64,000 nucleotides of DNA from a virus (IMGVR_UViG_3300028992_000036), one strand, 5' to 3'; counted from the stretch's first letter, positions 8,110-41,597 are shown. Notes: generated by a model not told the origin, from the sequence alone. Made by a program: numbers and translations.

Positions 8110-8226
8110 AGATCCCTCTAAAACACACAGAGCGCGTCCATGCGCTCTAAAACAACTTGTTTACTGCATTTTCTAACCAACTTGTTTTCTGGGTTGTTTA
8201 ATTAGGTCTGGGCATGTCTTATTAAG

Positions 8227-8281
8227 CCTGCTTCCGTATATATTTAATAAGTTACTTATTATTTATATATACAGAAGCAGG
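8227..8281. repeat. 55-bp palindrome CCTGCTTCCGTATATA...TATATACAGAAGCAGG, copy 1 of 2
   Basis: 16-bp arms with 1 mismatch around an AT-rich loop; near-identical copy at 33724-33780; embedded in a longer imperfect inverted repeat (about 8205-8310). Confidence 0.55.
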
Positions 8282-8305
8282 TCTTTAAATAAGCTCCCAG
8301 ACCGA

Positions 8306-8572
8306 TTACATCACCAGTAACTTCGCTTTGGCTCGACCTAAAGTGGTTAACCCAAGAGTTCGGCGGTGATAGCGATTGTCACTGCGTTGGCGCGTATGCC
8401 CTTTCTCCACAAGCCCCTTTTTTATCAGAGCGCGAATTGAGAACTGGATACTTTGCTTGGTTGTCTTGTACGGCAAAACTTCAAGCAATTCGTCCAGATC
8501 AAGTAGATAACCTCGCTCATAACCGAGATTGAGCGTTTTGATGATGTCCTTTTGTTTATCGGTTAACGTCAT
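8306..8572 (-). CDS. small basic protein, possible winged-helix DNA-binding regulator
   Basis: 88-aa ORF; basic helix-rich sequence; first gene of the block upstream of the terminase operon. Confidence 0.4.
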   Translation of the reverse strand: MTLTDKQKDIIKTLNLGYERGYLLDLDELLEVLPYKTTKQSIQFSIRALIKKGLVEKGHTRQRSDNRYHRRTLGLTTLGRAKAKLLVM

Positions 8573-8581
8573 GGCAAATCC

Positions 8582-9472
8582 TTATGCCGGTAAAGCAATT
8601 TCTAACGGTTTATCCAAAGGTTGTTTGTCGAATGCCAGCAGTGGCAGCGTGTCAGGCAGTCGACGACCAAAGTCAGGGTTTCGATACACCCCATACAACG
8701 GAGACGTAAAGCTCAGGTTGTGAATGTCCTTGAGCAACTTCACAATGCTGGCCTCGTCCACCAGACTGTCGGCAATGTCCTGAATCGTCGTGCCACGATT
8801 CCGCCCAGCTTTTGCCAGGGAACTGTTCTTGTGGTAGTCCGCCACCAGATCACGCAGTGCACGGCGACGACGAGACTCGCTCATTGCGAACAACTCTTTG
8901 ACGATCGCCTCGTTATCACCCGGGTCGGAACGGAAATGGCGCTGGAATACACGCAGTGCACTTTCATAGCTCTTCGGTCGCTCAGGGCGGATGAACTTAA
9001 ACCCTGCTTTCATGGCGAAGGGATTGTATTTGCTCATCGAGGACTGGATCTCAATGATTGGCCGGTCATGCATCCTGCTAACCAGGTTAATCATTCGATA
9101 AGAGACGCCTACGCCACGATACTGAGTATCCACAACTGAGCGACTGATCACCGCAAAGTTGTTATTCACGTACCGACCCCAGTACTGGTTAGCCACGGTG
9201 GTATTAGTGGTTGGTTTCAACTTAGGAAACATGCGGTGGCGAGGTGCCAACAGTAGTTTCGGGTAAGCCATAACCACGACGCCCACCAGACGGTCATCAA
9301 GTTCGCAGCGATAGTAAGTTGGCGCGAAAGGTTTGCCGTCTGTTTTGTAGTGAAGCGACTTAAGAGCGTGCCAGTCCTCTACAGTTCCCTTTGTAACAGT
9401 CATTCGCTCCAGAAAGTCCAGATGACGCGGAAACTCTTCAGGGCGGTAGCGTTTAATGATGATGTCCGTCAT
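8582..9472 (-). CDS. hypothetical protein with GNAT-like motif (QYRGVGVSYRMINLV)
   Basis: 296-aa ORF; motif resembles acetyltransferase acetyl-CoA binding motif A; stop overlaps start of downstream ATPase. Confidence 0.4.
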   Translation of the reverse strand: MTDIIIKRYRPEEFPRHLDFLERMTVTKGTVEDWHALKSLHYKTDGKPFAPTYYRCELDDRLVGVVVMAYPKLLLAPRHRMFPKLKPTTNTTVANQYWGRYVNNNFAVISRSVVDTQYRGVGVSYRMINLVSRMHDRPIIEIQSSMSKYNPFAMKAGFKFIRPERPKSYESALRVFQRHFRSDPGDNEAIVKELFAMSESRRRRALRDLVADYHKNSSLAKAGRNRGTTIQDIADSLVDEASIVKLLKDIHNLSFTSPLYGVYRNPDFGRRLPDTLPLLAFDKQPLDKPLEIALPA

Positions 9473-10134
9473 GAATGGACCTCATCGTGACTACCATTGT
9501 GATATTCCACCTTCACGCGTTCTTTGTAGTGCTTGGTGATCTGCATATCCGGGCGCAGCGCGTTCTTCAGGTCTTCGTGAGTCGTCGCCACCATTACCGT
9601 CGCACCAACCTTTCGAGCGGCACGCTGGAGGTTAGACGCCACAACCTGAGCGGTTACACGGTCGAGAACAGCGCCGAACTCGTCAGCAGCCCACACTTTA
9701 GCGCCTGACTCAATCAGTTTGGCAATCTTGAGACGATATTTCTGGCCGTCTGACATTTCAGAAGGCTTGCGAACAAACAGATATGCATCGTTCAGACCAG
9801 CCATAGATAACAACCCAAGCGCATCACTGGTCGTTTTGCCCAACTGATCGATGACGTTAACCTCATTATCGAAGGTAAAATCATCGATGGAGGCTACAGA
9901 CAGCCCTTCATCCTTCATCTGTCGTTGCAACTCGCGCAGCACAACGGATTTGCCGGAACCGGATTGGCCGGTGATGTACACCACATCGCCCTGCTTCACT
10001 TCCAGCTCCAGATTGTCGTAAAGCGTCCACTCTTTTTCGTCCAGGCCAAGCCCGAACGACTCAGCGATTTCCAACGTGCGCGTGGTTTTATTTACGCGTG
10101 TCTGAAACGATACGTTGATGATGTATTTGCTCAT
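9469..10134 (-). CDS. stand-alone ABC-type ATPase domain protein
   Basis: Walker A GQSGSGKS, signature-like SDGQKYRL, Walker B VWAADEF, H-loop VATTHE; 221 aa with no transmembrane partner nearby. Confidence 0.65.
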   Translation of the reverse strand: MSKYIINVSFQTRVNKTTRTLEIAESFGLGLDEKEWTLYDNLELEVKQGDVVYITGQSGSGKSVVLRELQRQMKDEGLSVASIDDFTFDNEVNVIDQLGKTTSDALGLLSMAGLNDAYLFVRKPSEMSDGQKYRLKIAKLIESGAKVWAADEFGAVLDRVTAQVVASNLQRAARKVGATVMVATTHEDLKNALRPDMQITKHYKERVKVEYHNGSHDEVHS

Positions 10135-10799
10135 GCAGCCATCTCCCCGGAAGAGATCTTCTCCGCATATGCCACAAATGCGTCTACCCCGCTTTCTCCC
10201 GTCATTTCTTCCATGTGGGCAAGCAAATCACCAACAACAATGGCAGAGCCAGCAGGGAGCGTTTTAAAGCCCAATACGTCGACAACACGTACTTCTTCCG
10301 CTGCAACTTCACGACTGATCTCGGTGTGTTCATCCTTCTGTCGTTTAGTTTCTTCGCCAAGATCGATAACTAGCGAGTCGGTGTCCATTTCTTCTGTCAT
10401 ACTGCCAACGAGAACATTCAACTCACGCTCTTCAAAGCCGAAAACCTCGATATCGTCCAGAACAAGCGACTCAAGCTCTTTCTGTAGCTTAATTGCATCG
10501 TAATCAATGCTGGCAAGTCGGTTATCTTCAAGGCGCTTCGCACGAACCTCGTCATCACTGAGATCATCGCGAACAATAACCGGTACGCGCTCAAGTCCAG
10601 CAAAAATTGCAGCCTCACGGCGGCCGTGGCCAGTAATAATTACGTCGTTCTTATCGACCGTAATTGGCTGGTCAAATCCGCGCTTTTTAATGGCTGCGGC
10701 TAGATCTCGGATCTGCTGTTCATCATGCTTTTTGGCATTCATCTCATAGGGAATAAGATCTGCCGGGTCGCGATATACGATTTCAAACTTTTTGGTCAT
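10131..10799 (-). CDS. ParB-like nuclease domain protein (paralog 1); start curated to MTKKFEIVY
   Basis: ParB/Srx-type N-terminal motif IITGHGRREAA; TAATG overlap with upstream paralog. Confidence 0.65.
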   Translation of the reverse strand: MTKKFEIVYRDPADLIPYEMNAKKHDEQQIRDLAAAIKKRGFDQPITVDKNDVIITGHGRREAAIFAGLERVPVIVRDDLSDDEVRAKRLEDNRLASIDYDAIKLQKELESLVLDDIEVFGFEERELNVLVGSMTEEMDTDSLVIDLGEETKRQKDEHTEISREVAAEEVRVVDVLGFKTLPAGSAIVVGDLLAHMEEMTGESGVDAFVAYAEKISSGEMAA

Positions 10800-11497
10800 T
10801 ACATACGCTCCTTGTAGTAGTCGACCAGCCACACCAGAGCCTCACCAGCGTTCTCCATTTCATTACCGGTGTTAATAGCCTGCTCTTTGATGATGTTTTT
10901 TATGGTTTCTGCAACACGATCTGACGCATCGAAAGTTACTTTGAAGCGCATGGTCTGATGTTCCGCACCCACACGTTCGGTTTTCTCTCGTTTGTCGGTA
11001 TCGACAGGCTCATCACTACCACGAGACAACGCCTCCAGTGCTTCAAGGTCGATTGCCGCCTCTTTTGCTAAAACCATCGAGATTTCGTCGTCATACGGGG
11101 CGATTTCAGACAGTTGATAGTCAAGTTCTGACTGAATTTCTTCAATGAAGCGTTGCAATGCGATTTGGTCGTCTTCACCGTATCGCTCGTTGTCCACCAG
11201 TGACATCTGTTTAGCTACGACATCGCTAATTTTGCCCACAGAAAGCACCGGAACCGTTGAAATTCCTTGCTCAATAGCAGCACGCCAGCGATGTTCGCCG
11301 CCGAGGATTTCAAAAAATCCATCTTCAAGTTCACGAGCCAAAATTGGCTTAAAAAAGCCCAATTTTTCGATAGAACCTTTCAGTTTTTCAAAATTCTGCG
11401 CACCAACCGAATTGGTGTTCCAGGTATTCGGGCGAAGGTTGGCAACATCAACCTGCAAAATCGTGATTTTTACATCCATTTTATTGCTACAATCCAC
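10799..11497 (-). CDS. ParB-like nuclease domain protein (paralog 2)
   Basis: ParB box-like ILGGEHRWRAA; 232 aa; no ParA-type partner in window. Confidence 0.65.
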   Translation of the reverse strand: MDCSNKMDVKITILQVDVANLRPNTWNTNSVGAQNFEKLKGSIEKLGFFKPILARELEDGFFEILGGEHRWRAAIEQGISTVPVLSVGKISDVVAKQMSLVDNERYGEDDQIALQRFIEEIQSELDYQLSEIAPYDDEISMVLAKEAAIDLEALEALSRGSDEPVDTDKREKTERVGAEHQTMRFKVTFDASDRVAETIKNIIKEQAINTGNEMENAGEALVWLVDYYKERM

Positions 11498-11561
11498 TAA
11501 GTAATCACTTACTTATTATAATAGCCAAATAACATACAAAAGGCACTAAGGAAAGAGGTTT

Positions 11562-13121: not shown

Positions 13122-13123
13122 TT

Positions 13124-13402
13124 ATGAGCGAAAAGAAAACAACTTATTGTCAGGTAGCATTGTCTGATAAGGCCAATGACAAACTTGGAAAGTTTCAAGT
13201 GAAACTAAAAGAAAAAAATATCAAAATGTCTAAGGCTGAAGTCATAAATACCATTCTGGAACAATTGACAATGGCCGACTTTGACAAGGTTATATCTTCT
13301 GTCGGGGCTTCCGCTAAGACTCGTGAGAAAATCATGCGTATCTATGAGAACTCTAATATGACAAAGGAAGATCTCGAAACGCTATTAAGCAGATTAAAAT
13401 AA
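13124..13402 (+). CDS. hypothetical protein
   Basis: 92-aa ORF 3 bp after the helicase stop. Confidence 0.4.
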   Translation: MSEKKTTYCQVALSDKANDKLGKFQVKLKEKNIKMSKAEVINTILEQLTMADFDKVISSVGASAKTREKIMRIYENSNMTKEDLETLLSRLK

Positions 13403-13428
13403 TCACGCTATCAATTAGGGAGACAAAG

Positions 13429-13893
13429 ATGAAGTCTCCCATACTGTTCACTTTCTGTTCTAAAACTATCATGAAATACTCGCTTCTCCCTCTACTAACG
13501 TTACCAGTGTTGATGCTTACCGCGTGCCAATCACGCCCAATATCAATCCATGACGCCAAACCAGCACCGCAGGCCAAAGTGTTCAAGTATCAAAGCGCAG
13601 CGCCAGCTACGTTGGTGGTAATGAGAGACACAGGTTTTGTAGGAGCTGGATGTGATGCTTCCATTTTCATCAACGGCGAAACTGTCGCAAAACTGGCTAC
13701 AGGCGAAAAAGCGACTTTCCATTTAAATGCCGGAGAATTAATTGTGGGTGCATCTCTTGAAGGTGCAGGTTTATGTGCTCTAAACCCCGCTCGTCAAGAG
13801 CGAGAAACGACTCTGAAGAATGGAGACACAAAAGCGTTCAGGGTGTTCACCAGCAATTCTGGTGACATCGACATTCTGCCAACAACTCTGTGA
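13429..13893 (+). CDS. putative lipoprotein
   Basis: Signal peptide ending in lipobox LTAC; AGGGAGACAAAG Shine-Dalgarno (alternative start at 13471). Confidence 0.5.
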   Translation: MKSPILFTFCSKTIMKYSLLPLLTLPVLMLTACQSRPISIHDAKPAPQAKVFKYQSAAPATLVVMRDTGFVGAGCDASIFINGETVAKLATGEKATFHLNAGELIVGASLEGAGLCALNPARQERETTLKNGDTKAFRVFTSNSGDIDILPTTL

Positions 13894-13897
13894 TGAC

Positions 13898-14422
13898 ATG
13901 ACAACCAAAGATATTACCTACGGTATCCAAGCTGAACTCTGGCCGCGAGATTACACTAACGTTGAAAAACTACTGATGTTCTGGCGCAGAGAACAAATTC
14001 CTGTAAGGGTCACTCTCGAAGATGGCCAGGCGTTTTGCATGTACGTTTATGGCCTCATGCCATCTCGTAACAAAGTTGACCTTTGCCCAGCCCCTTTTGA
14101 CAAAGAAAATCGTATAAGGCTCCCACTTGAACGCATTAGTACAATTGAATCAGGTGTGGTTGACAGTATCGCTCACGATTTCAAAGGTCGACTAACAGTT
14201 CACCCTGATTATGTCGATAATCGGCCATCACGCCGCGATTTTTTTGCAATTTGCAACCAAGCCTACAAAGCAAACAAATCTATAAGGGTGTACATGGCGG
14301 ATGGCCGTGAAATTGAGGGGGTGTCAGCAGGCGCAGATGCTTGTCAGGTTACACTACGTGTCGAGAACGGTAGAAAAATAGTTGTTTTGTTCGATTGGGT
14401 TGAACGAATTTTGCCTTTTTGA
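13898..14422 (+). CDS. hypothetical protein (start curated to MTTKDITY)
   Basis: ATG 4 nt after the lipoprotein stop; ORF-track start at 13820 overlaps the upstream gene. Confidence 0.45.
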   Translation: MTTKDITYGIQAELWPRDYTNVEKLLMFWRREQIPVRVTLEDGQAFCMYVYGLMPSRNKVDLCPAPFDKENRIRLPLERISTIESGVVDSIAHDFKGRLTVHPDYVDNRPSRRDFFAICNQAYKANKSIRVYMADGREIEGVSAGADACQVTLRVENGRKIVVLFDWVERILPF

Positions 14423-15017: not shown

Positions 15018-15668
15018 ATGGCTAACATTATCATTTCTAAAAAATCCATCATTGAAGCTGCTTCCATTGTATCCGATGAACTGCGCGAAAAAGCAGATCT
15101 GGCAACTCAAACATATAACGAACATTATAAAAATGGTACGCACACTAAAGCAGACAAAGCAAATATGCAAGCTGCGACCACTAAACTTGCTTACTTCATC
15201 AACAACGTCGTAAACGCAGTAGAAGACGAAAAATTATGCTCTGTTTTCTACTATGCGATTAAAGCAAGCAAACAAGCGCCAGAAGTATTTTTCCGTGATG
15301 CAATGACTAATAGTTATTCTCTGGAAAAACTGGTTTATCTGGTTAAATCAATTAAATCTGGTAAATGCGTTTATTCCATCGCTGATATGTCAGGATCTCG
15401 TGTATTCGCTTTAATCGATATGATTAACGACGAGATCGACACGTTCACCAATGGCGCTGTTTTCGATTTAATGAATGAAGCTAAAAAAGCGTGCGAAATT
15501 AAATTGGACGCTGGCTATACTCAAGCCAACCAGTTGATCAATCTTTGCGAACGTCTTGGACTTGTTGAGAAAGTCAAAGGAATGGGAAGCGCAAAAGCTG
15601 GTACACAGCAATATCGCTTTATCAAGAATGATTTCTACAATTATTTAGCTGATGCTTTTAAAGCGTAA
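15018..15668 (+). CDS. hypothetical protein of AT-rich cassette
   Basis: 216-aa ORF with Shine-Dalgarno AAGGAAAAA; markedly AT-rich codon usage versus neighbours; followed by hairpin terminator. Confidence 0.5.
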   Translation: MANIIISKKSIIEAASIVSDELREKADLATQTYNEHYKNGTHTKADKANMQAATTKLAYFINNVVNAVEDEKLCSVFYYAIKASKQAPEVFFRDAMTNSYSLEKLVYLVKSIKSGKCVYSIADMSGSRVFALIDMINDEIDTFTNGAVFDLMNEAKKACEIKLDAGYTQANQLINLCERLGLVEKVKGMGSAKAGTQQYRFIKNDFYNYLADAFKA

Positions 15669-16790: not shown

Positions 16791-17273
16791 TTACACGCCA
16801 TCAAGGATGTGGATGCGGTTGCTTGCGTATACATTCAGCATAAAGTTAGCGCAAAACAGTTTCCATGTATCAACGCCAGCGGTATACGTAATGTTTTTGC
16901 ATTTAATTGCATTGTTGGCGATCCGCATCCCCTGCGATACTGCTTCATCGTCGGAAAATTTGAACGACGATTGAGTTTTAATCCAGACAGAAATCTGCGT
17001 AGCGAACTCAATCAGCTTGGACTGGCAGAATCGCCCGGAGCGCACCGGAAAGACGAACGTTCCGAATCCAGAATTTACCACATATGCTTTCTCAAATACC
17101 CGCGAGTAACGACGATTGCCAATGATGTCGCGTGCAATAATGCATTTTTCTTGTGCTGACAGTTCTACCGTCTCATTGTCGCGCCATGCACCAAGTACTC
17201 GTTTTTCAATGTCAGAGAACGTTACAGCGATATTGCCATGTGCGGGTGCGTTTACAGTAGCGATAAAATTCAT
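16791..17273 (-). CDS. hypothetical protein
   Basis: 160-aa ORF; TAAGGAATTAATC Shine-Dalgarno; upstream AACAAATTGTTTTCT palindrome. Confidence 0.5.
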   Translation of the reverse strand: MNFIATVNAPAHGNIAVTFSDIEKRVLGAWRDNETVELSAQEKCIIARDIIGNRRYSRVFEKAYVVNSGFGTFVFPVRSGRFCQSKLIEFATQISVWIKTQSSFKFSDDEAVSQGMRIANNAIKCKNITYTAGVDTWKLFCANFMLNVYASNRIHILDGV

Positions 17274-17623
17274 GATTAATTCCTTATCGTAAATAACAAA
17301 TTGTTTTCTTGTTGGTGTTAATTATCGTTGTACGAATAAGGCGTCAAAGTGGAAAGTTGCGGTAGCCGGACGGGAACAGGTGGGTTTGTCGGTTGCCTGG
17401 AGGTAAGAGGTTGGTGTTATTAGCCTGAGGGAAACAGGATGGTCATTTAAGACCACCAATGCTGGTGGCCTTAATAATTATCGCCCGATTACGCTAAGGA
17501 TCTTTTCCTCAACTGATTTGTTGTTGCGACTAAACTGCCTTGCGTATCTGATGACAGAAGAGGCGTTTTGCTTTCTGACCATCTCGGCTCTTTCCTTCAG
17601 GCGTTTCTTGAAATCGCCCATAT

Positions 17624-17998
17624 TTACCACCAGGCGCAGAAGGTCAGTCTGTTATTGTGAAAGTCGTGGTTCTTAATCAGATCTTCCACAAGCTCTTTCA
17701 ACTGCCCCACATCATGCCAGTAACCTTCGTCGTACTCCTGACTGCCGAAGAAAAAACCTTCCCGAGTAGGCAAGTACTCTTCGCAATTGCTTTCGTTTAT
17801 GTGCATCAAATGAGCTTTCAGAAGACAAATGTCATTCATCGTTAATTCTAAAAGCTCACAATTTTCGACTTCACCTACGTTGCGCTCCATCCACCCAACG
17901 AGCGCATTGAACTTACGGAAGTAAGCAACCTGCTTTCTGGATGCCTCGTTATTCAGATCGTTTTTAGGCTGTGTCTCGATATAGATATCAAGTCCCAT
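17624..17998 (-). CDS. hypothetical protein (start curated to MGLDIYIE)
   Basis: Internal ATG preceded by AAGGAAACC; the ORF-track ATG at 18040 lacks a ribosome-binding site. Confidence 0.5.
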   Translation of the reverse strand: MGLDIYIETQPKNDLNNEASRKQVAYFRKFNALVGWMERNVGEVENCELLELTMNDICLLKAHLMHINESNCEEYLPTREGFFFGSQEYDEGYWHDVGQLKELVEDLIKNHDFHNNRLTFCAWW

Positions 17999-18115
17999 GA
18001 TGGTTTCCTTATTAACTTGCTTCAGTAAAATCATTTTCACAAATCAGATAAGGCAGAAAACAAATTGTTATCGGGCTTAATAAAATGGCGCGGTTTACGC
18101 GCCATTTAAAGAGGA

Positions 18116-18637: not shown

Positions 18638-18949
18638 TCAGGCTATTGCCATCACTGATGCTCTCTGAATTTCTTGCTGGGCCACGCGGTTAACTTCCAT
18701 CAAAGCCAGTTCGAGCTGATGTTCCGGCCACATTCTTTGAAATGCCATCCAGCCTTTTCCACGCTGGCGACGAACATTCATTACATAACGAGTAAAGGTG
18801 TTTTTATCGAAAGACACCGCTGTTTCACGGAACAGACGAATAGAGGTTCCATTGGCAACGATGTCCAGCAAAGTTAATTGAGCAACCAGCGCAGGCTTCT
18901 CTTTTCTCTTCTGGTCTTTGTCCAGACCAAGAACCAATGATTTTTTCAT
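18638..18949 (-). CDS. hypothetical protein (start curated to MKKSLVLG)
   Basis: Internal ATG with ACGGAG Shine-Dalgarno; the ORF-track start is TTG inside the palindromic motif. Confidence 0.45.
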   Translation of the reverse strand: MKKSLVLGLDKDQKRKEKPALVAQLTLLDIVANGTSIRLFRETAVSFDKNTFTRYVMNVRRQRGKGWMAFQRMWPEHQLELALMEVNRVAQQEIQRASVMAIA

Positions 18950-19103
18950 CACAACTCCGTAAACAACTTGTTTTCTCAATGGCGTAAATAATACCAGTAA
19001 GAAAACGGCTACAAAGCATATTGATCAGGTGTATGAGCGATATGCAGGTTCTTCCCTGCGGCTACAGATGAAGTTAAGCCAGCATTGCTGGCTTTGGTTG
19101 GGT

Positions 19104-19433
19104 TTACTCGAATACTTCAAGAAACTCCTGAACGTCCCAATGCTGGACGAGGTGAAGATAGACCTTAGAAATCACGTCATTTTCGCTATCGCATGTGAAG
19201 TAGTACTTCTGGCTGCGGTTGTATGTGTCCACACAAAATTCGCTCATATCCATAAAGTCAGCATCTTCACCCATGTCGCAAATCATCAAAGCAGGTGCAT
19301 CATCACGAGTCATCAGCTCCAGCACCCATCTTGAATTAATCAGAGTGGAAGACCAACCTTCCAGCTCATAGAACTGGTCAAACTCTTTTTGAGTTAATTT
19401 CTTGATTTGGTTGATGTCGATATTTGCAAACAT
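19104..19433 (-). CDS. hypothetical acidic protein (start curated to MFANIDIN)
   Basis: Internal ATG preceded by TTTAAGGATTG; the first ATG lies inside the upstream palindrome. Confidence 0.45.
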   Translation of the reverse strand: MFANIDINQIKKLTQKEFDQFYELEGWSSTLINSRWVLELMTRDDAPALMICDMGEDADFMDMSEFCVDTYNRSQKYYFTCDSENDVISKVYLHLVQHWDVQEFLEVFE

Positions 19434-19789
19434 AAAGCAATCCTTAAACAACATGTTTTCTTGATGGTGTTATTATCGCAATAACGCACAGGCGAAAAAG
19501 GATTTTATTCCGGTGAATATGGTTTTGGCAGTGAGTTTTCAGGTTCAGTACCGAGTATACTTTTTACATTATTCTGATTTAGTGGCCGAAGGTGGCTGGT
19601 GGGCAGAATAATCCTCTCCCCGAAAACCTACTGAAATCGATTGTGACCCGTTGGCTGTCTGGCACAATTACGCTGTAGCTGGGCATTCAGAGGGAATCCA
19701 GCGGTAAGCAAGTCCGCCTACGTGAGCGCCTCTCTTCTTCCCGCACATTACAGGTGGGTAGCCGCAACTCTCCCTCTCGCTATACCGGT

Positions 19790-21394: not shown

Positions 21395-21594
21395 TTATCC
21401 CTCACAATTTCCAATTTTCCAGACCATCGTCTATTTCAGCGTCAGGGTGGAATTGTACCGCATCAAATCCTACATCGAGCACCTTTCGAATGTTCTTGAT
21501 GGTTAGACTGGCCCCCTGAATCTCCAGACAACCAGTATCACTTAAATAAGTGATAGTCTTAATACTAGTTTTTAGACTAGTCATTGGAGAACAG

Positions 21595-21960
21595 ATGATT
21601 GATGTCTTAGGGCCGGAGAAACGCAGACGGCGTACCACACAGGAAAAGATCGCAATTGTTCAGCAGAGCTTTGAACCGGGGATGACGGTCTCCCTCGTTG
21701 CCCGGCAACATGGTGTAGCAGCCAGCCAGTTATTTCTCTGGCGTAAGCAATACCAGGAAGGAAGTCTTACTGCTGTCGCCGCCGGAGAACAGGTTGTTCC
21801 TGCCTCTGAACTTGCTGCCGCCATGAAGCAGATTAAAGAACTCCAGCGCCTGCTCGGCAAGAAAACGATGGAAAATGAACTCCTCAAAGAAGCCGTTGAA
21901 TATGGACGGGCAAAAAAGTGGATAGCGCACGCGCCCTTATTGCCCGGGGATGGGGAGTAA
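21595..21960 (+). CDS. insC: IS2 transposase OrfA (InsC-like)
   Basis: Protein begins [56 protein letters not shown], matching recalled IS2 InsC. Confidence 0.8.
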
Positions 21961-22823
21961 GCTTAGTCAGCCGTTGTCTCCGGGTGTCGCGTGCGCAGTT
22001 GCACGTCATTCTCAGACGAACCGATGACTGGATGGATGGCCGCCGCAGTCGTCACACTGATGATACGGATGTGCTTCTCCGTATACACCATGTTATCGGA
22101 GAGCTGCCCACGTATGGTTATCGTCGGGTATGGGCGCTGCTTCGCAGACAGGCAGAACTTGATGGTATGCCTGCGATCAATGCCAAACGTGTTTACCGGA
22201 TCATGCGCCAGAATGCGCTGTTGCTTGAGCGAAAACCTGCTGTACCGCCATCGAAACGGGCACATACAGGCAGAGTGGCCGTGAAAGAAAGCAATCAGCG
22301 ATGGTGCTCTGACGGGTTCGAGTTCTGCTGTGATAACGGAGAGAGACTGCGTGTCACGTTCGCGCTGGACTGCTGTGATCGTGAGGCACTGCACTGGGCG
22401 GTGACTACCGGCGGCTTCAACAGTGAAACAGTACAGGACGTCATGCTGGGAGCGGTGGAACGCCGCTTCGGCAACGATCTTCCGTCGTCTCCAGTGGAAT
22501 GGCTGACGGATAATGGTTCATGCTACCGGGCTAATGAAACACGCCAGTTCGCCCGGATGTTGGGACTTGAACCGAAGAACACGGCGGTGCGGAGTCCGGA
22601 GAGTAACGGAATAGCAGAGAGCTTCGTGAAAACGATAAAGCGTGACTACATCAGTATCATGCCCAAACCAGACGGGTTAACGGCAGCAAAGAACCTTACA
22701 GAGGCGTTCGAGCATTATAACGAATGGCATCCGCATAGTGCGCTGGGTTATCGCTCGCCACGGGAATATCTGCGGCAGCGGGCTTGTAATGGGTTAAGTG
22801 ATAACAGATGTCTGGAAATATAG
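21918..22823 (+). CDS. insD: IS2 transposase OrfB (InsD-like, DDE catalytic domain; normally expressed as OrfAB by -1 frameshift)
   Basis: 301-aa ORF overlapping orfA in -1 frame; integrase-core-like region. Confidence 0.8.
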
Positions 22824-23024
22824 GGGCAAATCCAATGGTTTGCTATGTGACACCGTAATCACGCAGCTTTTCTTCCCTCCCCTGACTCCCCCATACTCCG
22901 TTTCTGTACCCAATTGAGTCCGAGATTGTATGGTGCTCGAAACAGATATTTGGTAGACACTCAGAGTCATGCTGTGTAACGAGGGTAGGGCTACTAACTG
23001 TCGTCTTATACAATTTGGTGAGTT

Positions 23025-23273
23025 TCAGCATTTTACCACCCCGTTCGGAAACAACTCATTCGCCGTAGTTGATATAACCTCCCAATTAACGCCGACATCA
23101 GCGTTATGGCATTGTCTGATTTTTTGCATCACCTGTACGCATTGTTCATCAGTGAGATCTGTCCTTACTTCAGCAATATCTTCTTTGTGCCACATAACCA
23201 TGAGTAAGGGTTCGTCTTCTGGATAGTTTTTCAGTTTCTCGATGATTTCTTTTGCTGTTCCAAACATCTTCAT
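23025..23273 (-). CDS. hypothetical small protein
   Basis: 82-aa ORF with AGGAGATG Shine-Dalgarno and upstream AAACAATTTGTTTTCT motif. Confidence 0.45.
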   Translation of the reverse strand: MKMFGTAKEIIEKLKNYPEDEPLLMVMWHKEDIAEVRTDLTDEQCVQVMQKIRQCHNADVGVNWEVISTTANELFPNGVVKC

Positions 23274-23426
23274 CTCCTAAACAATTTGTTTTCTTATATG
23301 ACTTATTATCTCAATCAACAAAAGGTAGAAAACAAATTGTTTTAGAGTTTGTTAAAGTCAGAAGGGGTTGTGTCTATATGAAAATGCCCGGCGTGTTGCC
23401 GGGCATTGCGAAGAGAGGTTGTTTAA

Positions 23427-26718: not shown

Positions 26719-27016
26719 TAAAAAGGTGGTGCTTTTGCCGTTACGCACCACCCCGTCAGTAGCTGAACAGGAGGGACAGCTGATAGAAACAGAAGCCACT
26801 GGAGCACCTCAAAAACACCATCATACACTAAATCAGTAAGTTGGCAGCATCACCGAGCGCCAGCGGCGAACATATGAGCTTCGGAAATACTAGACATTCT
26901 TAACTCCGTTGTTTTCTAGTTGTGGTTATTTTCACAAATAAGAAAAGATAGAAAACAATTTATTTAAGGCCACAACTTATGGCCTTTATTTATTCATGCC
27001 GAAGGATTTGTAGCGT

Positions 27017-28162: not shown

Positions 28163-29848
28163 TCATTTAACGCGTTTGAAAACGTATACGCTGACTGTGA
28201 TCCCTGTGTCTTCAAACTCGTTGGTAAACGACTTCCCTCTGGCATAAACGTAATTATCCATCGTCATCCAGTCCAGTATTGGCGCAGTGCCCGGCAATAC
28301 TGCTACAAGACGCCCGCCGACTTTCAGATGCCCCAGCGCAGCCAGCGTGTGCTCTCTATGACGACCAAGCGAGTACGGCGGGTTCATAACGATTTTGTCG
28401 AACTGATAACCTGCGTTGTCCTCAGACCACTTTATGAAGTCGCAGCAAATCGTGTTCGTATACCCTTTTCCACGCAGGATATCAGCGAAGAGAGGTGCGA
28501 TTTCTATGCAGGTAACATCTTCCAGATCGGCGTCAATATAGGCCAGAAGATCCCCACGTCCGGCTTGAGGCTCCAACAGCTTCTCACCAGGCTTCAATTC
28601 AGTGGCTCTTGCAACGTACTCAGCAATCAAGCGTGGGGTAGGGTAGAACTGGTGTGATTTTGTATCCGGTATTAAACCGGTAGCCACAATCGTATTTAGC
28701 GTATGGCCGATGTCATACGGGAACTGCCAGTGCTTTTTCTCCTGCACGCCGCCAATGAAGCTCAGTGTGCGCTCAAGCTCTTCCACCTGCGACTTCTGGA
28801 GAGCTGAATCAGAGAAGTACCATACACCTTTGTCTTTGCTCAATCGCCCGTCACGAAGCGCAGTGCGAACCGGCACGGAGATCGTCTTCTGGATTAAACC
28901 GAACTGCTTTGGTGCCCGTGTTTTTGGCGCAGTTCGGCATGGCGCGGGGATTGCAGCAGGCATACTGTAAGCCAGCACCTCATTCAACTTCCAGGCCACG
29001 TCAGGATGTATTTCAAAGTGAACGTTGCCGTTCTTGAACATCTTCACGCGCATCAGATTTCCATCGACGTTCATCCAGTCACCGGTCTGGCAGTCGTTTG
29101 CCCGATACGCAGCTGATAGCACCTCAGCAGTGCGGTTGATGGTAATAAATTCTTTGTGCGCGAAGAAATGAAGCAAGACACGCAGATCGTCGATGTAGTC
29201 CTCTTTGCGATAGTTCACGCTAACGCTGTCCCGCCAGAAATCAGAAATGCAGTCAGCGATTATCAGCCGCTCGCTGAAACCATTTGTCTTATTTGTCTTG
29301 TGCACAGGACTCAGCGCCTTAAACAAGCCATACACGCGCTCAGAGAGATATTTGTGCCTGTCATTCAGCAAATTAAGCATCGTGGGTATGACCGTTTCTG
29401 CTTTGAACTCCGGTACACCAACGAACTCTTTAACCTTCATCTGGTAGCCGGTTCTGTCAGTTTTGATGACTTCCTGTTTGCCCTCTATAAACTGCTCGCG
29501 CCACTCATCTCGACGGGAAGCTGGCATGATCAGCAAAACGTTAGTCATGTCCGTGACCTTCCTCCAGTACTCGGCCCAAATATTCTGTTTCACCCATTCC
29601 AGATCGACTTTATCCAACCAACCTCGATTTAAACGCGAGCGATCTTCATCTGGTCGATGGTTTAGTTTCAGCAGGCGATTAATCATGTTGTGGCGTTCGT
29701 CGCCATAAACGAAGTTGTGAACCTGATACATGAAGGCGATCTCTTTCTCGCACTCGGCCACAATTTCGTGGATAACGTTCATTTCCTGACGATAATCGAT
29801 AGCAGTGTTTGAGCTGGCATCGTCGATGATGGAAAGGGCTGTATTCAT
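28163..29848 (-). CDS. putative N6-adenine DNA methyltransferase with large N-terminal domain of unknown function
   Basis: C-terminal 170 aa carry FYPTP, motif I LLEPQAGRGDL and motif IV NPPYS; N-terminal about 390 aa has no recognisable motifs. Confidence 0.6.
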   Translation of the reverse strand: MNTALSIIDDASSNTAIDYRQEMNVIHEIVAECEKEIAFMYQVHNFVYGDERHNMINRLLKLNHRPDEDRSRLNRGWLDKVDLEWVKQNIWAEYWRKVTDMTNVLLIMPASRRDEWREQFIEGKQEVIKTDRTGYQMKVKEFVGVPEFKAETVIPTMLNLLNDRHKYLSERVYGLFKALSPVHKTNKTNGFSERLIIADCISDFWRDSVSVNYRKEDYIDDLRVLLHFFAHKEFITINRTAEVLSAAYRANDCQTGDWMNVDGNLMRVKMFKNGNVHFEIHPDVAWKLNEVLAYSMPAAIPAPCRTAPKTRAPKQFGLIQKTISVPVRTALRDGRLSKDKGVWYFSDSALQKSQVEELERTLSFIGGVQEKKHWQFPYDIGHTLNTIVATGLIPDTKSHQFYPTPRLIAEYVARATELKPGEKLLEPQAGRGDLLAYIDADLEDVTCIEIAPLFADILRGKGYTNTICCDFIKWSEDNAGYQFDKIVMNPPYSLGRHREHTLAALGHLKVGGRLVAVLPGTAPILDWMTMDNYVYARGKSFTNEFEDTGITVSVYVFKRVK

Positions 29849-29989
29849 AATTACACCATTAAATAATTTGTTTTCTGATTGGTGTAATTATCGCAAACTT
29901 GAAAAGGCATAAAAGCTGCATTCATAGGCGTTACAGCAGATTTAAGGCGTAAAAATGGGGGCTGTCGCCCCCTGTCGACTGGTGCTGTA

Positions 29990-30556
29990 TTAGAGTGCGT
30001 ATTGCGTTTTGTGCGGCTGCTTATTCAAGTCATGGCGATGCGTGAGCTCCCGCATCATGTCTTCAAGGCGACTCTTTGTGTCGTCGAGCTGGTCGGCCAT
30101 TGCACCTAAAAGCTGGCGAACGGCCATCGGATCGTCGCTGTTTAGTGATGGCATTTTAGAACCTGCTTTAGAAGACATAAGGTTGATTGCAGACATCAAC
30201 ATCGTTAGAGAGGATTTAAGCCCGGCAATTTCACGATCTTTGCTGGCAATAATCGTCTCACTTTTGTTACCGTCATCAGTTTCTTGAGTCTCGCTCACCA
30301 TATCCAAAGTCGCTTGCAACTTATCAGCTCTCTCTTTTTCAGCAAGGTAATGAACACCGAAATGGTGTGCCAAAGCTACAATCTGAGTTGGCTCTTCAAA
30401 GGTGGAATTAAAATTAAGTATTGTAAACAGTCTCTCAAATATGGAAACGTCTTCTATTCCTCGAAGAATGGCTAACATTTTGACCAGTTCATTAGCATCC
30501 ATTTCTTCGAATAAGGCGTTTTGTTCATCAGCTATCGCTTTGCATTTCTTGCACAT
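29990..30556 (-). CDS. hypothetical protein
   Basis: 188-aa ORF with AGGAAAAACAC Shine-Dalgarno and upstream AAACAAGTTGTTTTCT motif. Confidence 0.45.
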   Translation of the reverse strand: MCKKCKAIADEQNALFEEMDANELVKMLAILRGIEDVSIFERLFTILNFNSTFEEPTQIVALAHHFGVHYLAEKERADKLQATLDMVSETQETDDGNKSETIIASKDREIAGLKSSLTMLMSAINLMSSKAGSKMPSLNSDDPMAVRQLLGAMADQLDDTKSRLEDMMRELTHRHDLNKQPHKTQYAL

Positions 30557-30853
30557 GTGTTTTTCCTAATGCTTAAACAAGTTGTTTTCTTATTGTCTTT
30601 ATTGTGATGTGGCATAAAAGGGGAGCAAGCTAAACGTAAAGGTGCAAACTCTCTATTTCGGTCAACGAAACACAAGGGCCATTTGGCCCTTGTCATTAAC
30701 ACTTTGCTTTACGAACTAACGGATAAGCGAAGTAGATCGCCAAACCAATGAGGACGCCATCAGAAATGACAGACATCATCTTTCCCGTAAAATCCACCAA
30801 CACCGCCATCACCAGAAGAGCAATGACGATCACAAGCCGGAATCTCTCAAGCA

Positions 30854-31279
30854 TTAGAGATAAGCATCCAGTGACAACTGAAGCGCCTGGGCGATCTTTT
30901 TCAGTGCCTGCTCTTCTTGTTCACCAATGCCGTCCTGATCGGCAATATCAAGGCACAGACACAGAACATCGACCGCCTCTGGAGTACCCGCAATATCAGA
31001 CAGCTCACGAATAGCCTGTGCATTAGCAGAACGAGGGGACGCTTCGTAACGAGCACGGATATTGGCGCTCATTTGGGCAATTTCACCAGCAAACGGAGAA
31101 AACGCAGGCAGAGCTGCAATTGTCTTCTCAAGAATGGCAATTTCTTTTGCGTCACATGTGCCGTCGGCATAGGAGATCATGTACGCGCCCCACACGGTGG
31201 CCTCAACCGCATCACGGTTCTCCATTTTTTTGACTTCGATAACAGCTTTACGAGTTTTCTTTTTGAAGAAACCTAACAT
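30854..31279 (-). CDS. TerB-like (tellurite-resistance TerB fold) protein
   Basis: 141 aa; paired ADG-x-x-D-x-x-E and DIADQDGIGEQEEQALKKIAQAL motifs typical of TerB family; AAAAGGAAAG Shine-Dalgarno. Confidence 0.5.
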   Translation of the reverse strand: MLGFFKKKTRKAVIEVKKMENRDAVEATVWGAYMISYADGTCDAKEIAILEKTIAALPAFSPFAGEIAQMSANIRARYEASPRSANAQAIRELSDIAGTPEAVDVLCLCLDIADQDGIGEQEEQALKKIAQALQLSLDAYL

Positions 31280-31372
31280 GTGCTTTCCTTTTATTATTTG
31301 TCAAAACAAGTTGTTTTCTAATTACATAAATTGCTTACGCAGAGATGGTCAATGCATATGCACTAACAGCCG

Positions 31373-36534: not shown

Positions 36535-36595
36535 TTTTTATCCTTAACCCATTTTGAGAGTTTTATTGTCGCAATGTCGAAGAGGCGAACAATTT

Positions 36596-38126: not shown

Positions 38127-38127
38127 A

Positions 38128-39231: not shown

Positions 39232-39302
39232 AAAAACCTCACAAAGATAAGTGACCACTTATTCATTAAGTGAGTTTACATTTATTGAGGGAACAAGGCC
39301 AG

Positions 39303-39333
39303 ATAGATAAAAAAATGGTGGCCATAGGCCACC
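39303..39333 (-). terminator. bidirectional hairpin TGGTGGCCATAGGCCACCA flanked by A7/T7
   Basis: Perfect GC-rich stem with flanking homopolymer runs, downstream of the 39403 gene. Confidence 0.5.
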
Positions 39334-39402
39334 AAAAACGAATAGTTGTTTCAGAAATTTAACGCGCCAGCGCAATATACACAGATAGATAACTACCTAC
39401 AA

Positions 39403-40272
39403 TTATTTTTTGATCATTCCGTACATTGCTGAGGCTTTAGCTTGCTCAACAAAGGAGGATAAATCGACATCACTATAGGTTGGAGACTTCAGAATCTTTC
39501 CATCGGAAATTCGAAAACCGATCATCTTATCGGTGCCATCAGCATGGCGAAATCCCAGGTCAGAAGAGTCGTATTTGCAGTTGGCCACAGCATGGCGACG
39601 CTCTTCGGCATCTGCAGGCCATAATTTTGTCATGTTGGACCGATGAATTTCGCCAACCAGCTCGACGACATTGATACCGAGAAAATCAGCCAGTCGATAA
39701 GTCATCATGCACGCCACATAGATTTTGTTCATTACACGGCGCAGTTCCTGAATCAGCTCAGAATCCTTAACAGTCTTCTTCTCAAGTTTATCTGCCAGCT
39801 CTTCGAGCATACATGACGCCTCACGAGCTTCCTGAAATGGCATTGCCATATCATCGAAAACAGTGTTACCAGGCACAAAAATTGTCTGCATAAAGCGATC
39901 AATGCTCTGTTCCTGCGTGTAATAAGTCATGCCGGTAGAAATACCACCTTTGATGGCGACCATCGTACCAACACCAACGTATAAAAAGTCGGCCATTGCA
40001 TCCAGCAGTTGCTCAATATCCCCATTCATTGCGGCTGGAATACCTTCCACTACAGCTTCTTCATGAATCAGGCTTGCACGGAGACGAAGCAGCTCTGGTG
40101 TCGGCATAACGCGTCTCGGATGCTGGAAGAGTTCATGAAACTGATCGACCATCTTGTAAATACTTTCAGTGGCTACACCATGGCCTTCATGCAATTCATA
40201 TGGTTCTGGCTTAAATCCAATGAGTCGATCGGTGGCAAGTTTCAGGTGGTCAGTCAGTTTGGTAAAGTTCAT
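39403..40272 (-). CDS. hypothetical protein, possible MazG-like all-alpha NTP pyrophosphohydrolase
   Basis: EEAVVE (E-E-x-x-E) and DAMADFLYV motifs reminiscent of MazG/dimeric dUTPase family; nucleotide-metabolism operon context. Confidence 0.4.
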   Translation of the reverse strand: MNFTKLTDHLKLATDRLIGFKPEPYELHEGHGVATESIYKMVDQFHELFQHPRRVMPTPELLRLRASLIHEEAVVEGIPAAMNGDIEQLLDAMADFLYVGVGTMVAIKGGISTGMTYYTQEQSIDRFMQTIFVPGNTVFDDMAMPFQEAREASCMLEELADKLEKKTVKDSELIQELRRVMNKIYVACMMTYRLADFLGINVVELVGEIHRSNMTKLWPADAEERRHAVANCKYDSSDLGFRHADGTDKMIGFRISDGKILKSPTYSDVDLSSFVEQAKASAMYGMIKK

Positions 40273-40349
40273 GCTAGTTTTGTTCCTTCTTAATTCTTGT
40301 GATCCATTGTGGCCCAGCGTTGCCAGGCCACATAATGCTTTGTATCGGT

Positions 40350-41492
40350 TTACAGGTCTGCAAACTGGCTTAGAGAAGCCTTATCCACGGTAGAATCGAT
40401 CTGACCTACCAGATATGTGCTTTGCTCTGCCTCTTGTGGTGCAATTTGCAGTGTGTCGGTTAACAACCACTTGTTCATCCAGACCAGCGGGTCAGTGGTA
40501 ACTTCTGGAAATAAAGCCTTCAGGCCAAGACGATTCATAGCCAGATTGGTGCGGTATTTTACATAGGTTTTGAGAATATCCGCGTTTAAACCAATCATCG
40601 AACCGTCTTTGAAGAGATAGTCTGCCCAGTTCATTTCTTGTTCGGCGACTGATTTCATGGTGTCGTAAATGACGTTTTCTTCATCAGCAGCAATCTCTTT
40701 CCACAATAAACCTTCGCGACCGGTACGCATGAAGCGGATCATGCGTTCAGTTCCTTCGCAATGCAGAGCTTCATCACGGGCAATAAAGCGCATAATTTTG
40801 GTGTTACCCTCAAGCAACTTCCGTTCACCAAAGGCAAACGTACATGCAAAACTTACGTAGAAACGGATCGCCTCAAGCGCATTAATGGACACCAACGTGC
40901 GGAAAAGCTGACGATGCAAAGGGTATGGCTCCCAGCCATATTCATTTACGTACAGACGCTCAAATTCCTTCTCACCTAACGACTGGCGCTCGCAGGTCAT
41001 CCCATAAAGCCTGTCATATTCAGCAGAGATACTGATCGCTCGGTTGATGATTTCTTCATCCGTAACAATACCGTCAAAAACAATGCTCGGATCGTCCACC
41101 ATGCCACGAATAATGTGGGTGTAGCTGCGGCTATGGATAGTCTCAGAGAAAGACCACGTTTCAACCCACGTTTCCAGTTCAGGAATAGAGATAAGCGGCA
41201 GCAGCGTTGCATTTGGGCTACGTCCCTGAACTGAATCGAGTAACGTTTGATAACGGAGATTGCTCAGAAAAATGTGACGTTCGTGGTCCCGCAGCTTCGT
41301 GTTGAAGTCGATACGATCGCTCGAAATATCAACTTCTTCCGGCCGCCAGAAGAAAGACAATTGACGTTCAATCAACTTTTCAAAATCACGGTATTTTTGC
41401 TGATCGTAACGTGCCACGTTGACAGATTGTCCGAGGAACATAGGCTCTTTGGTTGCATCATTAGCACCCAAACGGAACGTTGAATATGACAT
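40350..41492 (-). CDS. nrdB: ribonucleotide reductase class Ia beta subunit (start curated to MSYSTFRL)
   Basis: Collinear with E. coli NrdB as recalled ([20 protein letters not shown]..., di-iron ligands, radical-tyrosine region). Confidence 0.95.
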
Positions 41493-41597
41493 GTGTTTTT
41501 CCTTTTTCTTTTTTATGTGTTTAAACAAGTTGTTATCTTATTTGTTTAAACAAGGCTTACAAATCAAAGAGAAGGTGGGGATACACCCCACCATATG

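What the first reader, a model, noticed from the sequence alone, without database searches (positions are those of the whole stretch)
8149..41538. Recurrent palindromic motif AAACAAnTTGTTTTCT immediately upstream of at least 11 backbone genes
Copies lie 12-35 nt upstream of the start codons (just 5' of the Shine-Dalgarno) of genes at 7477-8109 (two copies, about 8149 and 8175), 16791-17273 (about 17295), 17624-17998 (about 18057), 18638-18949 (about 18961), 19104-19433 (about 19446), 23025-23273 (about 23279 and 23327), 28163-29848 (about 29861), 29990-30556 (about 30585), 30854-31279 (about 31304) and nrdB (about 41523). Most are preceded about 11 bp upstream by a -10-like GATAAT or TATTAT. 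The core AACAA-N-TTGTT is a perfect palindrome, suggesting a dimeric DNA-binding protein (repressor or activator) acting on a regulon, or a phage-specific promoter class.
Basis: seen in the sequence. Interest (0 to 1): 0.5.

Follow-up and report, generated by a model that had tools for sequence, protein, structure and literature searches.

The report
Dispersed palindromic operator of phage-plasmid promoters
A 15-17 bp palindrome (AGAAAACAA-N-TTGTTTA) sits at two fixed positions (about -38 and +14) around some 15 host-type promoters of this SSU5-like phage-plasmid, which is the signature of one DNA-binding regulator controlling a genome-wide set of genes; the regulator itself is still unidentified.

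Summary
The motif is about 50-fold over-represented, it is the most enriched palindrome in the window, and it lies almost only in non-coding DNA.

The window is an SSU5/pHCM2-type phage-plasmid, about 97% identical to Escherichia phage Cyrano. Complete relatives carry roughly 20 copies each. These lie in front of early genes, nrdB, the dnaB-like helicase gene, parA and terS.

The palindrome is phased to an extended -10 element (TGnGATAAT). Its centre lies either about 14 nt downstream of the predicted transcription start or about 38 nt upstream. Some promoters carry both copies, 51 bp apart.

It is unchanged across enterobacterial relatives down to about 70% protein identity. It is absent from syntenic Acinetobacter and Aeromonas relatives, which carry only a second, ancestral palindrome family.

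Untranscribed -38 copies, one-sided variants and unstructured 5'-UTRs argue for a DNA site rather than an RNA site.

Best explanation: an operator for a dimeric regulator that mainly represses. The best phage candidate is an 88-aa MarR-like winged-helix protein encoded next to terS, but it is silent in the lysogen, so the assignment is open. This is a new member of a known kind and appears to be undescribed.

The parts
8173..8189 (-). Motif A copy 1 in the terS leader (AGAAAACAAGTTGGTTA)
   Evidence: 26 bits. Conserved across 38 distinct orthologous leaders.
8148..8164 (-). Motif A copy 2 in the terS leader, 25 bp from copy 1
   Evidence: Klebsiella-type relatives have fused the two copies into one.
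8120..8148 (-). Hairpin AGAGCGC-atggac-GCGCTCT followed by GTGTGTTTT, just before the terS Shine-Dalgarno sequence (terminator-like leader element)
   Evidence: The stem is kept through compensatory changes in relatives. An analogous hairpin precedes terS in the Acinetobacter and Aeromonas relatives.
17292..17308 (-). Motif A, +14 type, in front of gene 16791-17273. Its -10 GATAAT lies at 17321-17326.
18056..18072 (-). Motif A, -38 type, upstream of TGTGAAAAT. The promoter of gene 17624-17998 has no +14 copy.
   Evidence: SSU5 has the full two-copy module at the equivalent place.
18959..18975 (-). Motif A, +14 type, in front of gene 18638-18949. Its -10 is TGGTATTAT.
19444..19460 (-). Motif A, +14 type, in front of gene 19104-19433. 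Its -10 is TGCGATAAT.
23277..23293 (-). Motif A, +14 copy of a two-operator promoter, in front of gene 23025-23273
23328..23344 (.). Motif A, -38 copy of the same promoter, 51 bp from the +14 copy. It lies after the terminator of the upstream gene.
26951..26967 (.). It is followed on the - strand by TGTGAAAAT and a decayed +14 half-site centred at 26908.
29859..29875 (-). Motif A, +14 type, in front of the DUF4942/methylase-like gene 28163-29848
30573..30589 (-). Motif A, +14 type, in front of gene 29990-30556
31302..31318 (-). Motif A in front of the TerB/TciA-like gene 30854-31279
41521..41537 (-). Motif A in front of nrdB (real ATG at about 41492)
   Evidence: Conserved in SSU5, pJN2-26 and Cyrano.
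8306..8572 (-). 88-aa winged-helix protein ('wHTH88', homolog of CYRAN_123). It is the best phage-encoded candidate reader of the motif; this is an inference, not a demonstration.
   Evidence: Its recognition helix is invariant. The AF2 model (pLDDT 86) resembles MarR/MepR/PadR dimers. It is the best-conserved small protein unique to motif-positive genomes. Against it: it is at background level in the lysogen.

Best explanation
Motif A is the operator of a sequence-specific, dimeric double-stranded-DNA-binding regulator. This regulator controls about 15 promoters in the window and about 20 per genome in the enterobacterial SSU5-like phage-plasmids.

The promoters are host sigma-70 promoters of the extended -10 type (TGnGATAAT, with a weak or absent -35).

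The palindrome occupies one or both of two phased positions:
- Centre at about +14, covering roughly +5 to +22. This is the geometry of lac O1. A bound dimer would block open-complex formation or promoter escape.
- Centre at about -38, over the -35 region. This copy lies 51 bp, about five helical turns, from the +14 copy, which would allow cooperative binding.

The regulator is therefore most likely a repressor. It would co-ordinately hold early genes, nucleotide-metabolism genes, replication genes, parA and the terS leader.

Shown: the motif, its phasing, its conservation and its restriction to one clade.

Inferred: the transcription starts, the sign of regulation and the identity of the protein. 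The best phage-encoded candidate is the 88-aa MarR-like winged-helix protein at 8306-8572, with a probability of about 0.3.
For: - Enrichment.
- Non-coding placement, P from 2e-8 to 6e-16 in five genomes.
- Phasing: a -10-like hexamer starts 25-26 nt upstream of the centre in 26 cases and exactly 26 nt downstream in 19 cases.
- 26 of 33 phased -10 elements carry TGn.
- Alignment of 28 modules gives ...TGnGATAAT-TAACACCAAnA-AGAAAACAAnTTGTTTA-SD-ATG.
- Paired copies 51 bp apart occur in the window, SSU5, pJN2-26 and CP027615.
- Footprinting: the motif and TGCGATAAT are invariant while the flanks diverge. Distant lineages keep a perfect -38 copy when the +14 copy decays.
- The motif is unchanged down to about 70% helicase identity.
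- As a multi-copy element it occurs only in SSU5-like contigs.
- In the Cyrano lysogen, genes directly behind +14 copies are at background level: 5.7-12.9 against a median of 9.8 (from PMC9928086).
- No Rfam hit, and the 5'-UTRs are no more structured than shuffled sequences.
Against: - No binding protein has been demonstrated and no transcription starts have been mapped.
- About half of the sites lack a -10 hexamer that passes the strict criterion.
- parA (50), the dnaB-like gene (21) and CYRAN_111 (25) carry the motif but are partly expressed in the lysogen.
- Most phage genes are silent in a lysogen anyway, so silence alone is weak evidence for repression.
- The best candidate reader (wHTH88) and p216 are themselves at background level in the lysogen. 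Either another protein holds these promoters in the plasmid state, or the motif acts only during lytic growth.
- A site at -38 could also serve activation.
Confidence: 0.72

Rival explanations
1. The motif is the binding site of a host transcription factor or nucleoid protein that is conserved in Enterobacterales. The phage-plasmid would use it to couple about 20 promoters to host physiology.
For: - The motif is strictly invariant across elements from Escherichia, Salmonella, Klebsiella, Enterobacter and others.
- It is absent exactly where the host is not enterobacterial, in Acinetobacter and Aeromonas.
- No lysogen-expressed, well-conserved phage DNA-binding protein was found.
Against: - No E. 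coli regulator I can recall has this consensus. LexA, NadR, KdgR, Cra, PurR and the PhoP box differ in half-site order or spacing (from memory, not tested).
- Single matches outside SSU5-like contigs look like chance.
- Host chromosomes could not be scanned with these tools.
Confidence: 0.15
2. The palindrome is mainly an activator site. A phage factor bound at -38 would substitute for the missing -35 of these extended -10 promoters. This would make them a phage-specific promoter class, with the +14 copies being secondary.
For: - The promoters lack a -35, and their -10 begins with G.
- In the divergent CP027615 lineage the -38 copy is the better conserved one.
- wHTH88 is made only outside the quiescent lysogen.
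Against: - In the window and its close relatives most copies are centred at +14, where activation is mechanistically unusual.
- The terS copies lie about 50 and 75 nt into a leader.
- TGn extended -10 promoters normally work without an activator (established knowledge of sigma-70 region 3.0 contacts).
Confidence: 0.1
3. The motif works in the mRNA, as a 5'-UTR operator for a translational repressor. The obvious candidate is the FljA homolog encoded at 13820-14422, acting in the same way that FljA acts on the fliC mRNA.
For: - The +14 copies fall in the predicted 5'-UTRs, right before the Shine-Dalgarno sequence.
- A strong FljA homolog (PF03614, E = 2.5e-84) is encoded nearby.
- It is retained even in elements of non-motile Klebsiella.
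- FljA binds fliC mRNA (PMC2652032, citing Yamamoto and Kutsukake 2006).
- The Salmonella fliC leader shares the 8-mer CAAGTTGT with some copies.
Against: - Real fliC leaders score 2.8 bits or less with the motif matrix, against 22-31 bits for the phage sites.
- The -38 copies are not part of the regulated transcript, yet they are phased to the -10.
- Variant copies (TTGGTT, TTATTT) are one-sided, with no compensatory change.
- The hairpin is worth -0.7 kcal/mol or less, and the UTRs fold no better than shuffled sequences.
- FljA alleles fall to 34-39% identity while the motif stays fixed.
Confidence: 0.04
4. The repeats are non-regulatory. They would be conserved module-boundary sequences left by, or used for, recombination between mosaic gene cassettes.
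For: - Whole promoter modules of about 75 bp recur between unrelated small genes.
- Some copies abut terminators at cassette borders (26959 in the window; 85608 and 87631 in SSU5).
- The two terS copies have recombined into one in Klebsiella-type elements.
Against: - Recombination junctions would not need a perfect palindrome.
- They would not be expected to keep single-nucleotide phasing to a -10 element.
- Selection keeps the palindrome intact while neighbouring bases drift.
Confidence: 0.03

Closest known systems
Phage-plasmid P1 C1 repressor regulon (about 17 dispersed operators)
   Same: A plasmid prophage in which one short operator recurs at many promoters scattered over about 100 kb. 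The controlled genes include replication and helicase genes and other lytic functions.
   Different: The P1 operators are asymmetric 17-mers (ATTGCTCTAATAAATTT, from memory) read by a monomeric C1. Here the site is a true palindrome with a different sequence, and no C1 homolog was noticed. The reader protein here is unknown.
lac O1 / LacI-type repression from a site centred near +11, with auxiliary operators
   Same: A palindromic operator just downstream of the transcription start. An auxiliary copy lies an integral number of helical turns away (51 bp here).
   Different: This is a resemblance of mechanism only. The sequence and the protein family are different, and about 20 promoters are involved instead of one.
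MarR/PadR-family winged-helix repressors and their short AT-rich palindromic operators (for example the MarR-operator complex 5h3r)
   Same: The candidate wHTH88 folds like the DNA-binding core of these dimers (TM 0.70-0.76). Operators of this family are palindromes of comparable size.
   Different: wHTH88 has only 88 aa and no ligand or dimerisation domain of the MarR type. It has no significant sequence similarity to the family. Binding has not been tested.
Global plasmid regulons (KorA/KorB of IncP-1; omega of pSM19035) and mycobacteriophage L5 gp71 'stoperators'
   Same: One protein reads many copies of a short site spread over a mobile element. The parA promoter is among the targets.
   Different: KorB and omega sites have other sequences, and their readers belong to the ParB and RHH families. 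Stoperators are asymmetric, orientation-dependent and not phased to promoters, whereas motif A is symmetric and strictly promoter-phased.

Membership tests
Sigma-70 extended -10 promoters | A TGn immediately upstream of a -10 hexamer with A at position 2 and T at position 6. A -35 is dispensable. | tested here: met
   26 of 33 motif-phased hexamers carry TGn. The hexamers are GATAAT (19), GAAAAT (5) and TATTAT (4). The generic -35/-10 scan does not pick them up.
Sigma-70 extended -10 promoters | Transcription starts about 7 nt downstream of the -10 | not testable with these tools
   Needs 5'-RACE or dRNA-seq. No TSS data were found for SSU5-like elements.
Operator of a dimeric dsDNA-binding repressor | Two-fold symmetric site of 12-20 bp | tested here: met
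   AAACAA-N-TTGTTT is perfect in 9 window copies. Both halves are equally conserved.
Operator of a dimeric dsDNA-binding repressor | The position overlaps the RNA polymerase footprint (-50 to +20) | tested here: met
   The centres fall at about +14 and about -38 relative to the inferred start.
Operator of a dimeric dsDNA-binding repressor | A cognate protein binds the site and lowers transcription | not testable with these tools
   There is only indirect support: the genes downstream are at background level in the lysogen.
P1 C1-type operator regulon | Asymmetric 17-bp C1 operator consensus | tested here: not met
   The motif is a palindrome of unrelated sequence. The C1 consensus is recalled from memory.
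FljA - fliC leader RNA operator | The target resembles the fliC 5'-UTR element bound by FljA | tested here: not met
   Salmonella, Citrobacter and E. coli fliC leaders score 2.8 bits or less with the motif matrix.
FljA - fliC leader RNA operator | An FljA-family protein is present | tested here: met
   PF03614, E = 2.5e-84, for window 13820-14422.
Structured cis-regulatory RNA (Rfam families) | Match to a curated covariance model, or a stable conserved fold | tested here: not met
   No hit between 7 and 43 kb. Folding z-scores range from -1.1 to +1.2. There is no compensatory variation.
MarR/PadR-type winged-helix regulators (for the candidate wHTH88) | Winged helix-turn-helix fold with a dimerising helix | tested here: met
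   The AF2 model has pLDDT 85.6 and an H-H-H-beta-hairpin-H topology. Foldseek matches MarR, MepR, NadR and AF1382.
MarR/PadR-type winged-helix regulators (for the candidate wHTH88) | Sequence membership (Pfam MarR/PadR models) | tested here: not met
   There is no Pfam family above threshold, only LexA_DNA_bind at E = 0.05. The PDB sequence search is negative.

The most novel reading that the evidence does not exclude
The motif is read at the RNA level as well as, or instead of, the DNA level by the phage-plasmid's FljA homolog. That would make this a T4 RegA-like translational-repression regulon of about 20 leaders. It would also imply that the Salmonella phase-variation repressor FljA was recruited from such a phage regulator.
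Probability: 0.04. Interest if true: 0.8.

Novelty: new member of a known kind. Interest (0 to 1): 0.45.

Why it matters
SSU5/pHCM2-like phage-plasmids are common in clinical Enterobacterales and carry resistance genes. Despite this, their regulatory circuitry is essentially uncharacterised.

This analysis gives a concrete, testable map:
- About 20 operator-bearing promoters (motif A) were layered, in the enterobacterial clade only, on top of an older promoter-associated palindrome (family B) that is shared with the Acinetobacter and Aeromonas relatives.
- There is a short list of candidate readers.

Finding the protein would identify the switch that keeps, or times, most non-structural genes of these elements. 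It would also provide a handle for curing or inducing them.

Tried and rejected
1. I followed this because the motif lies in 5'-UTRs, and rejected it for three reasons:
   - Real fliC leaders do not match the motif.
   - FljA alleles vary from 34 to 100% identity under an invariant motif.
   - The -38 copies are not transcribed.

2. The RHH-like 92-aa protein (13124-13402, homolog of CYRAN_117). It is attractive because it is well expressed in the lysogen (114). However, its predicted DNA-facing strand residues differ between alleles, and identity falls to 35%.

3. p216 (15018-15668). It has a C-terminal winged helix and evolves like a backbone gene. It has no informative structural match, it is silent in the lysogen, and it is only 50% conserved in CP027615. 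It is not excluded.

4. CYRAN_45-type repressor. It lies outside the window and is absent from SSU5. There is no motif A in its own control region, which instead holds family-B-like half-sites.

5. The ParA partner CYRAN_29. It is only about 41% conserved and has no Pfam match.

6. Covariation test. The motif never changes within the clade, and the Acinetobacter and Aeromonas relatives lack any second palindrome family. The only result is clade-level co-occurrence.

7. The generic -35/-10 scan does not detect these promoters.

8. Literature. No description of the motif was found. The primary FljA papers and a 2026 preprint on an SSU5-like element were not readable.

9. The N-run at 53112-53148 does not hide a motif copy. 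It lies inside an IS3-family transposase gene.


Full report
**What the window is.** Bases 16-32 kb are 96-98% identical to Escherichia phage Cyrano (pLF82) and to CMS-2020a, and more distantly related to Salmonella phage SSU5 and Klebsiella phage-plasmids. The window is therefore part of an SSU5/pHCM2-type phage-plasmid. Most genes run on the - strand. The gene at 7477-8109 is the small terminase, which is the first gene of the structural operon.

**Check of the observation.**
- The 16-mer with up to 2 mismatches occurs 22 times counting both strands, against 0.47 expected.
- The perfect core AACAA-N-TTGTT occurs 9 times, against 0.29 expected.
- A position matrix built from the 12 reported copies finds 14 strong sites. 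All lie between 8 and 42 kb. One is a strong unreported copy at 26959.
- An unbiased count of all 5+5 palindromes puts this one first in the window, Cyrano, SSU5 and pJN2-26.
- Eleven of the 14 window sites have non-coding centres, although only 12% of the DNA is non-coding (P = 2e-8). The same holds in four complete relatives.

**Anatomy.** Read on the gene strand, 28 modules from the window, Cyrano and SSU5 align as ...GCC-TTTT...TGnGATAAT-TAACACCAAnA-AGAAAACAAnTTGTTTA-(SD)-ATG.
- Across five genomes, a -10-like hexamer begins 25-26 nt upstream of the palindrome centre in 26 cases. It begins exactly 26 nt downstream in 19 cases. There is almost nothing in between.
- 26 of 33 such hexamers are preceded by TGn, where about 2 would be expected.
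- Taking the usual 7-nt distance from the -10 to the start (established knowledge, not measured here), the palindrome is centred at about +14 or at about -38.
- Several promoters have both copies, 51 bp apart: 23285/23336 in the window, 88325/88376 and 93668/93719 in SSU5, and similar pairs in pJN2-26 and CP027615.
- Centre-to-ATG distances of 18-37 nt imply leaders of about 31-51 nt.

**Distribution and conservation.**
- Complete genomes carry about 18-20 strong copies. These lie in front of many small early genes, the DUF4942 methylase-like gene, nrdB, the dnaB-like helicase gene, a cobT-like gene, parA and terS.
- In 80 IMG/VR loci spanning 70-100% helicase identity, the palindrome is unchanged and usually the top palindrome.
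- Orthologous alignments show the motif and TGCGATAAT held constant among diverged flanks. In the most distant lineages the -38 copy is perfect while the +14 copy has decayed to a half-site. The ancestral module therefore had two operators flanking the promoter.
- Exact consensus matches elsewhere in viral contigs are isolated single hits.
- Syntenic 110-kb plasmids of Acinetobacter baumannii and Aeromonas caviae (helicase 40-42% identical) have no motif A at all.

**DNA or RNA?** The +14 copies lie in the predicted 5'-UTRs, and ORF 13820-14422 is a strong homolog of FljA (PF03614, E = 2.5e-84). FljA is the Salmonella repressor that acts on fliC mRNA (PMC2652032). I tested this lead and the evidence goes against it:
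- Real fliC leaders fetched from Salmonella, Citrobacter, E. coli and others score 2.8 bits or less, against 22-31 bits for the phage sites. The only overlap is an 8-mer shared with the Salmonella leader.
- Variant copies (TTGGTT, TTATTT) change one arm only.
- The palindrome hairpin is marginal, and the leaders fold no better than shuffled sequences.
- Rfam finds nothing.
- The -38 copies are outside the regulated transcript, yet they are phased to the -10.
- FljA alleles drop to 34-39% identity while the motif stays fixed.

The motif is best read as a double-stranded DNA site. The FljA homolog is more likely a lysogenic-conversion gene aimed at host flagellin, but its retention in elements of non-motile Klebsiella remains unexplained.

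**Sign of regulation.**
- A site covering about +5 to +22 is the classic position for steric repression, as with lac O1. A site over the -35 region can also repress. Two sites five helical turns apart suggest cooperative binding.
- In the published Cyrano lysogen transcriptome, genes right behind +14 copies are at background level. terS is 7.1, nrdB 12.9, and CYRAN_47, 58, 85, 87, 101, 105, 106 and 110 range from 5.7 to 12.8, against a median of 9.8. This is despite near-consensus extended -10 elements.
- parA (50), the dnaB-like gene (21) and CYRAN_111 (25) are partly on.
- This is compatible with repression but not proof, since most lytic genes are silent in any lysogen.

**Who reads it?**
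- Among the nearby candidates, the RHH-like protein (13124-13402) is lysogen-expressed (114). However, it is allelic (35-100% identity) and its predicted DNA-facing strand varies.
- FljA is excluded as described above.
- p216 (15018-15668) has a C-terminal winged helix but is only 50% conserved at long range and gives no informative structural match.
- The 88-aa protein at 8306-8572 is encoded immediately upstream of the two terS-leader copies, and several lines point to it:
  - It has an invariant recognition helix.
  - It gives a confident winged-helix model that resembles MarR, MepR and PadR dimers.
  - It is the best-conserved small non-structural protein unique to motif-positive genomes, at 89/84/78% where typical genes are 45-65%.
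  - Its family exists only in these elements.
- Against the 88-aa protein: both it and p216 are at background level in the lysogen, at 7.8 and 5.9. It would then not be the maintenance operator.
- A host factor conserved in Enterobacterales would also explain both the invariance and the clade limit. I could not scan host chromosomes.

**terS leader.**
- Upstream of terS lies a large palindrome with a family-B core.
- The two motif A copies follow it, and then a hairpin plus U-run directly before the Shine-Dalgarno sequence.
- The hairpin stem is maintained by compensatory changes.
- An equivalent hairpin precedes terS in the Acinetobacter and Aeromonas relatives.
- Late-operon expression therefore probably needs read-through of a leader terminator. 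In the enteric clade the motif A copies were inserted between the promoter and the terminator.

**Comparison and novelty.**
- Functionally this resembles the dispersed C1 operators of P1, global plasmid regulons (KorA/KorB, omega) and lac-type +11 operators.
- It is not a member of any of these by sequence or by known protein.
- No paper in the searchable library describes it.
- I rate it as a new member of a known kind. It is useful for a clinically widespread but poorly studied phage-plasmid family, but not conceptually surprising.

Noticed in passing
window 4703-4716, 11498-11511, 39248-39261; 7-8 copies in each of Cyrano, SSU5 and pJN2-26; 11-15 copies in NZ_CP043456.1 and NZ_CP068233.1: There is a second dispersed palindrome family, (A/G)TAAGTA-NN-TACTTA(T/C). 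In Acinetobacter it appears as TTAGTAAGCGCTTAC directly followed by TATAAT. It lies in promoter spacers, for example TTGAAA-ATAAGTCAGTACTTACT-TATGAT. It also sits in the 64-bp divergent region between the ParB-like operon and the UvsW-like helicase gene. It is shared with the Acinetobacter and Aeromonas relatives, so it is older than motif A. Related half-sites (GGTAAGTGCTTACC) lie next to the CYRAN_45 repressor gene, which may be its reader.
   Followed up: partly
window 8120-8148 (hairpin) and about 8227-8295 (large palindrome): The terS leader holds a terminator-like hairpin that is conserved through compensatory changes. Upstream of it is a long AT-rich palindrome, clamped by CCTGCTTC/GAAGCAGG, with a family-B core. 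The same architecture precedes terS in the Acinetobacter and Aeromonas relatives. This suggests antitermination-type control of the late operon.
   Followed up: partly
window 13820-14422 (+): A full-length FljA (phase-1 flagellin repressor) homolog is carried by the phage-plasmid. Its alleles are highly variable, and it is retained even in Klebsiella elements whose hosts lack flagella.
   Followed up: partly
window 53112-53148: A run of 37 N lies inside an IS3-family transposase gene. It is a masked or unresolved stretch and is unrelated to the motif.
   Followed up: yes
window about 21504-22837: A 99.5% identical copy of IS2 is inserted in the early region. It accounts for part of the 16% of this stretch that does not align with Cyrano.
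   Followed up: no
window 8582-11497 (-): A highly conserved operon encodes two ParB-N-domain proteins, an ABC-type ATPase, an ATPase-acetyltransferase fusion and the 88-aa winged-helix protein. The ATPases are 80-86% identical even in the most divergent enteric relative. The operon is also present in the Acinetobacter and Aeromonas relatives. Its function is unknown.
   Followed up: no
NZ_CP043456.1 34899-35564 (L196): The Acinetobacter relative encodes a sigma-70-family sigma factor next to its MoxR-like ATPase gene. No counterpart is annotated in the enteric elements. It could be linked to the family-B promoter class.
   Followed up: no
Cyrano 40268-40822 (CYRAN_43; outside the window): In the published lysogen transcriptome this 184-aa hypothetical gene next to the integrase is expressed about 720-fold above background. 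That is far higher than any other gene of the element. It has no Pfam match and is absent from SSU5, pJN2-26 and CP027615.
   Followed up: no
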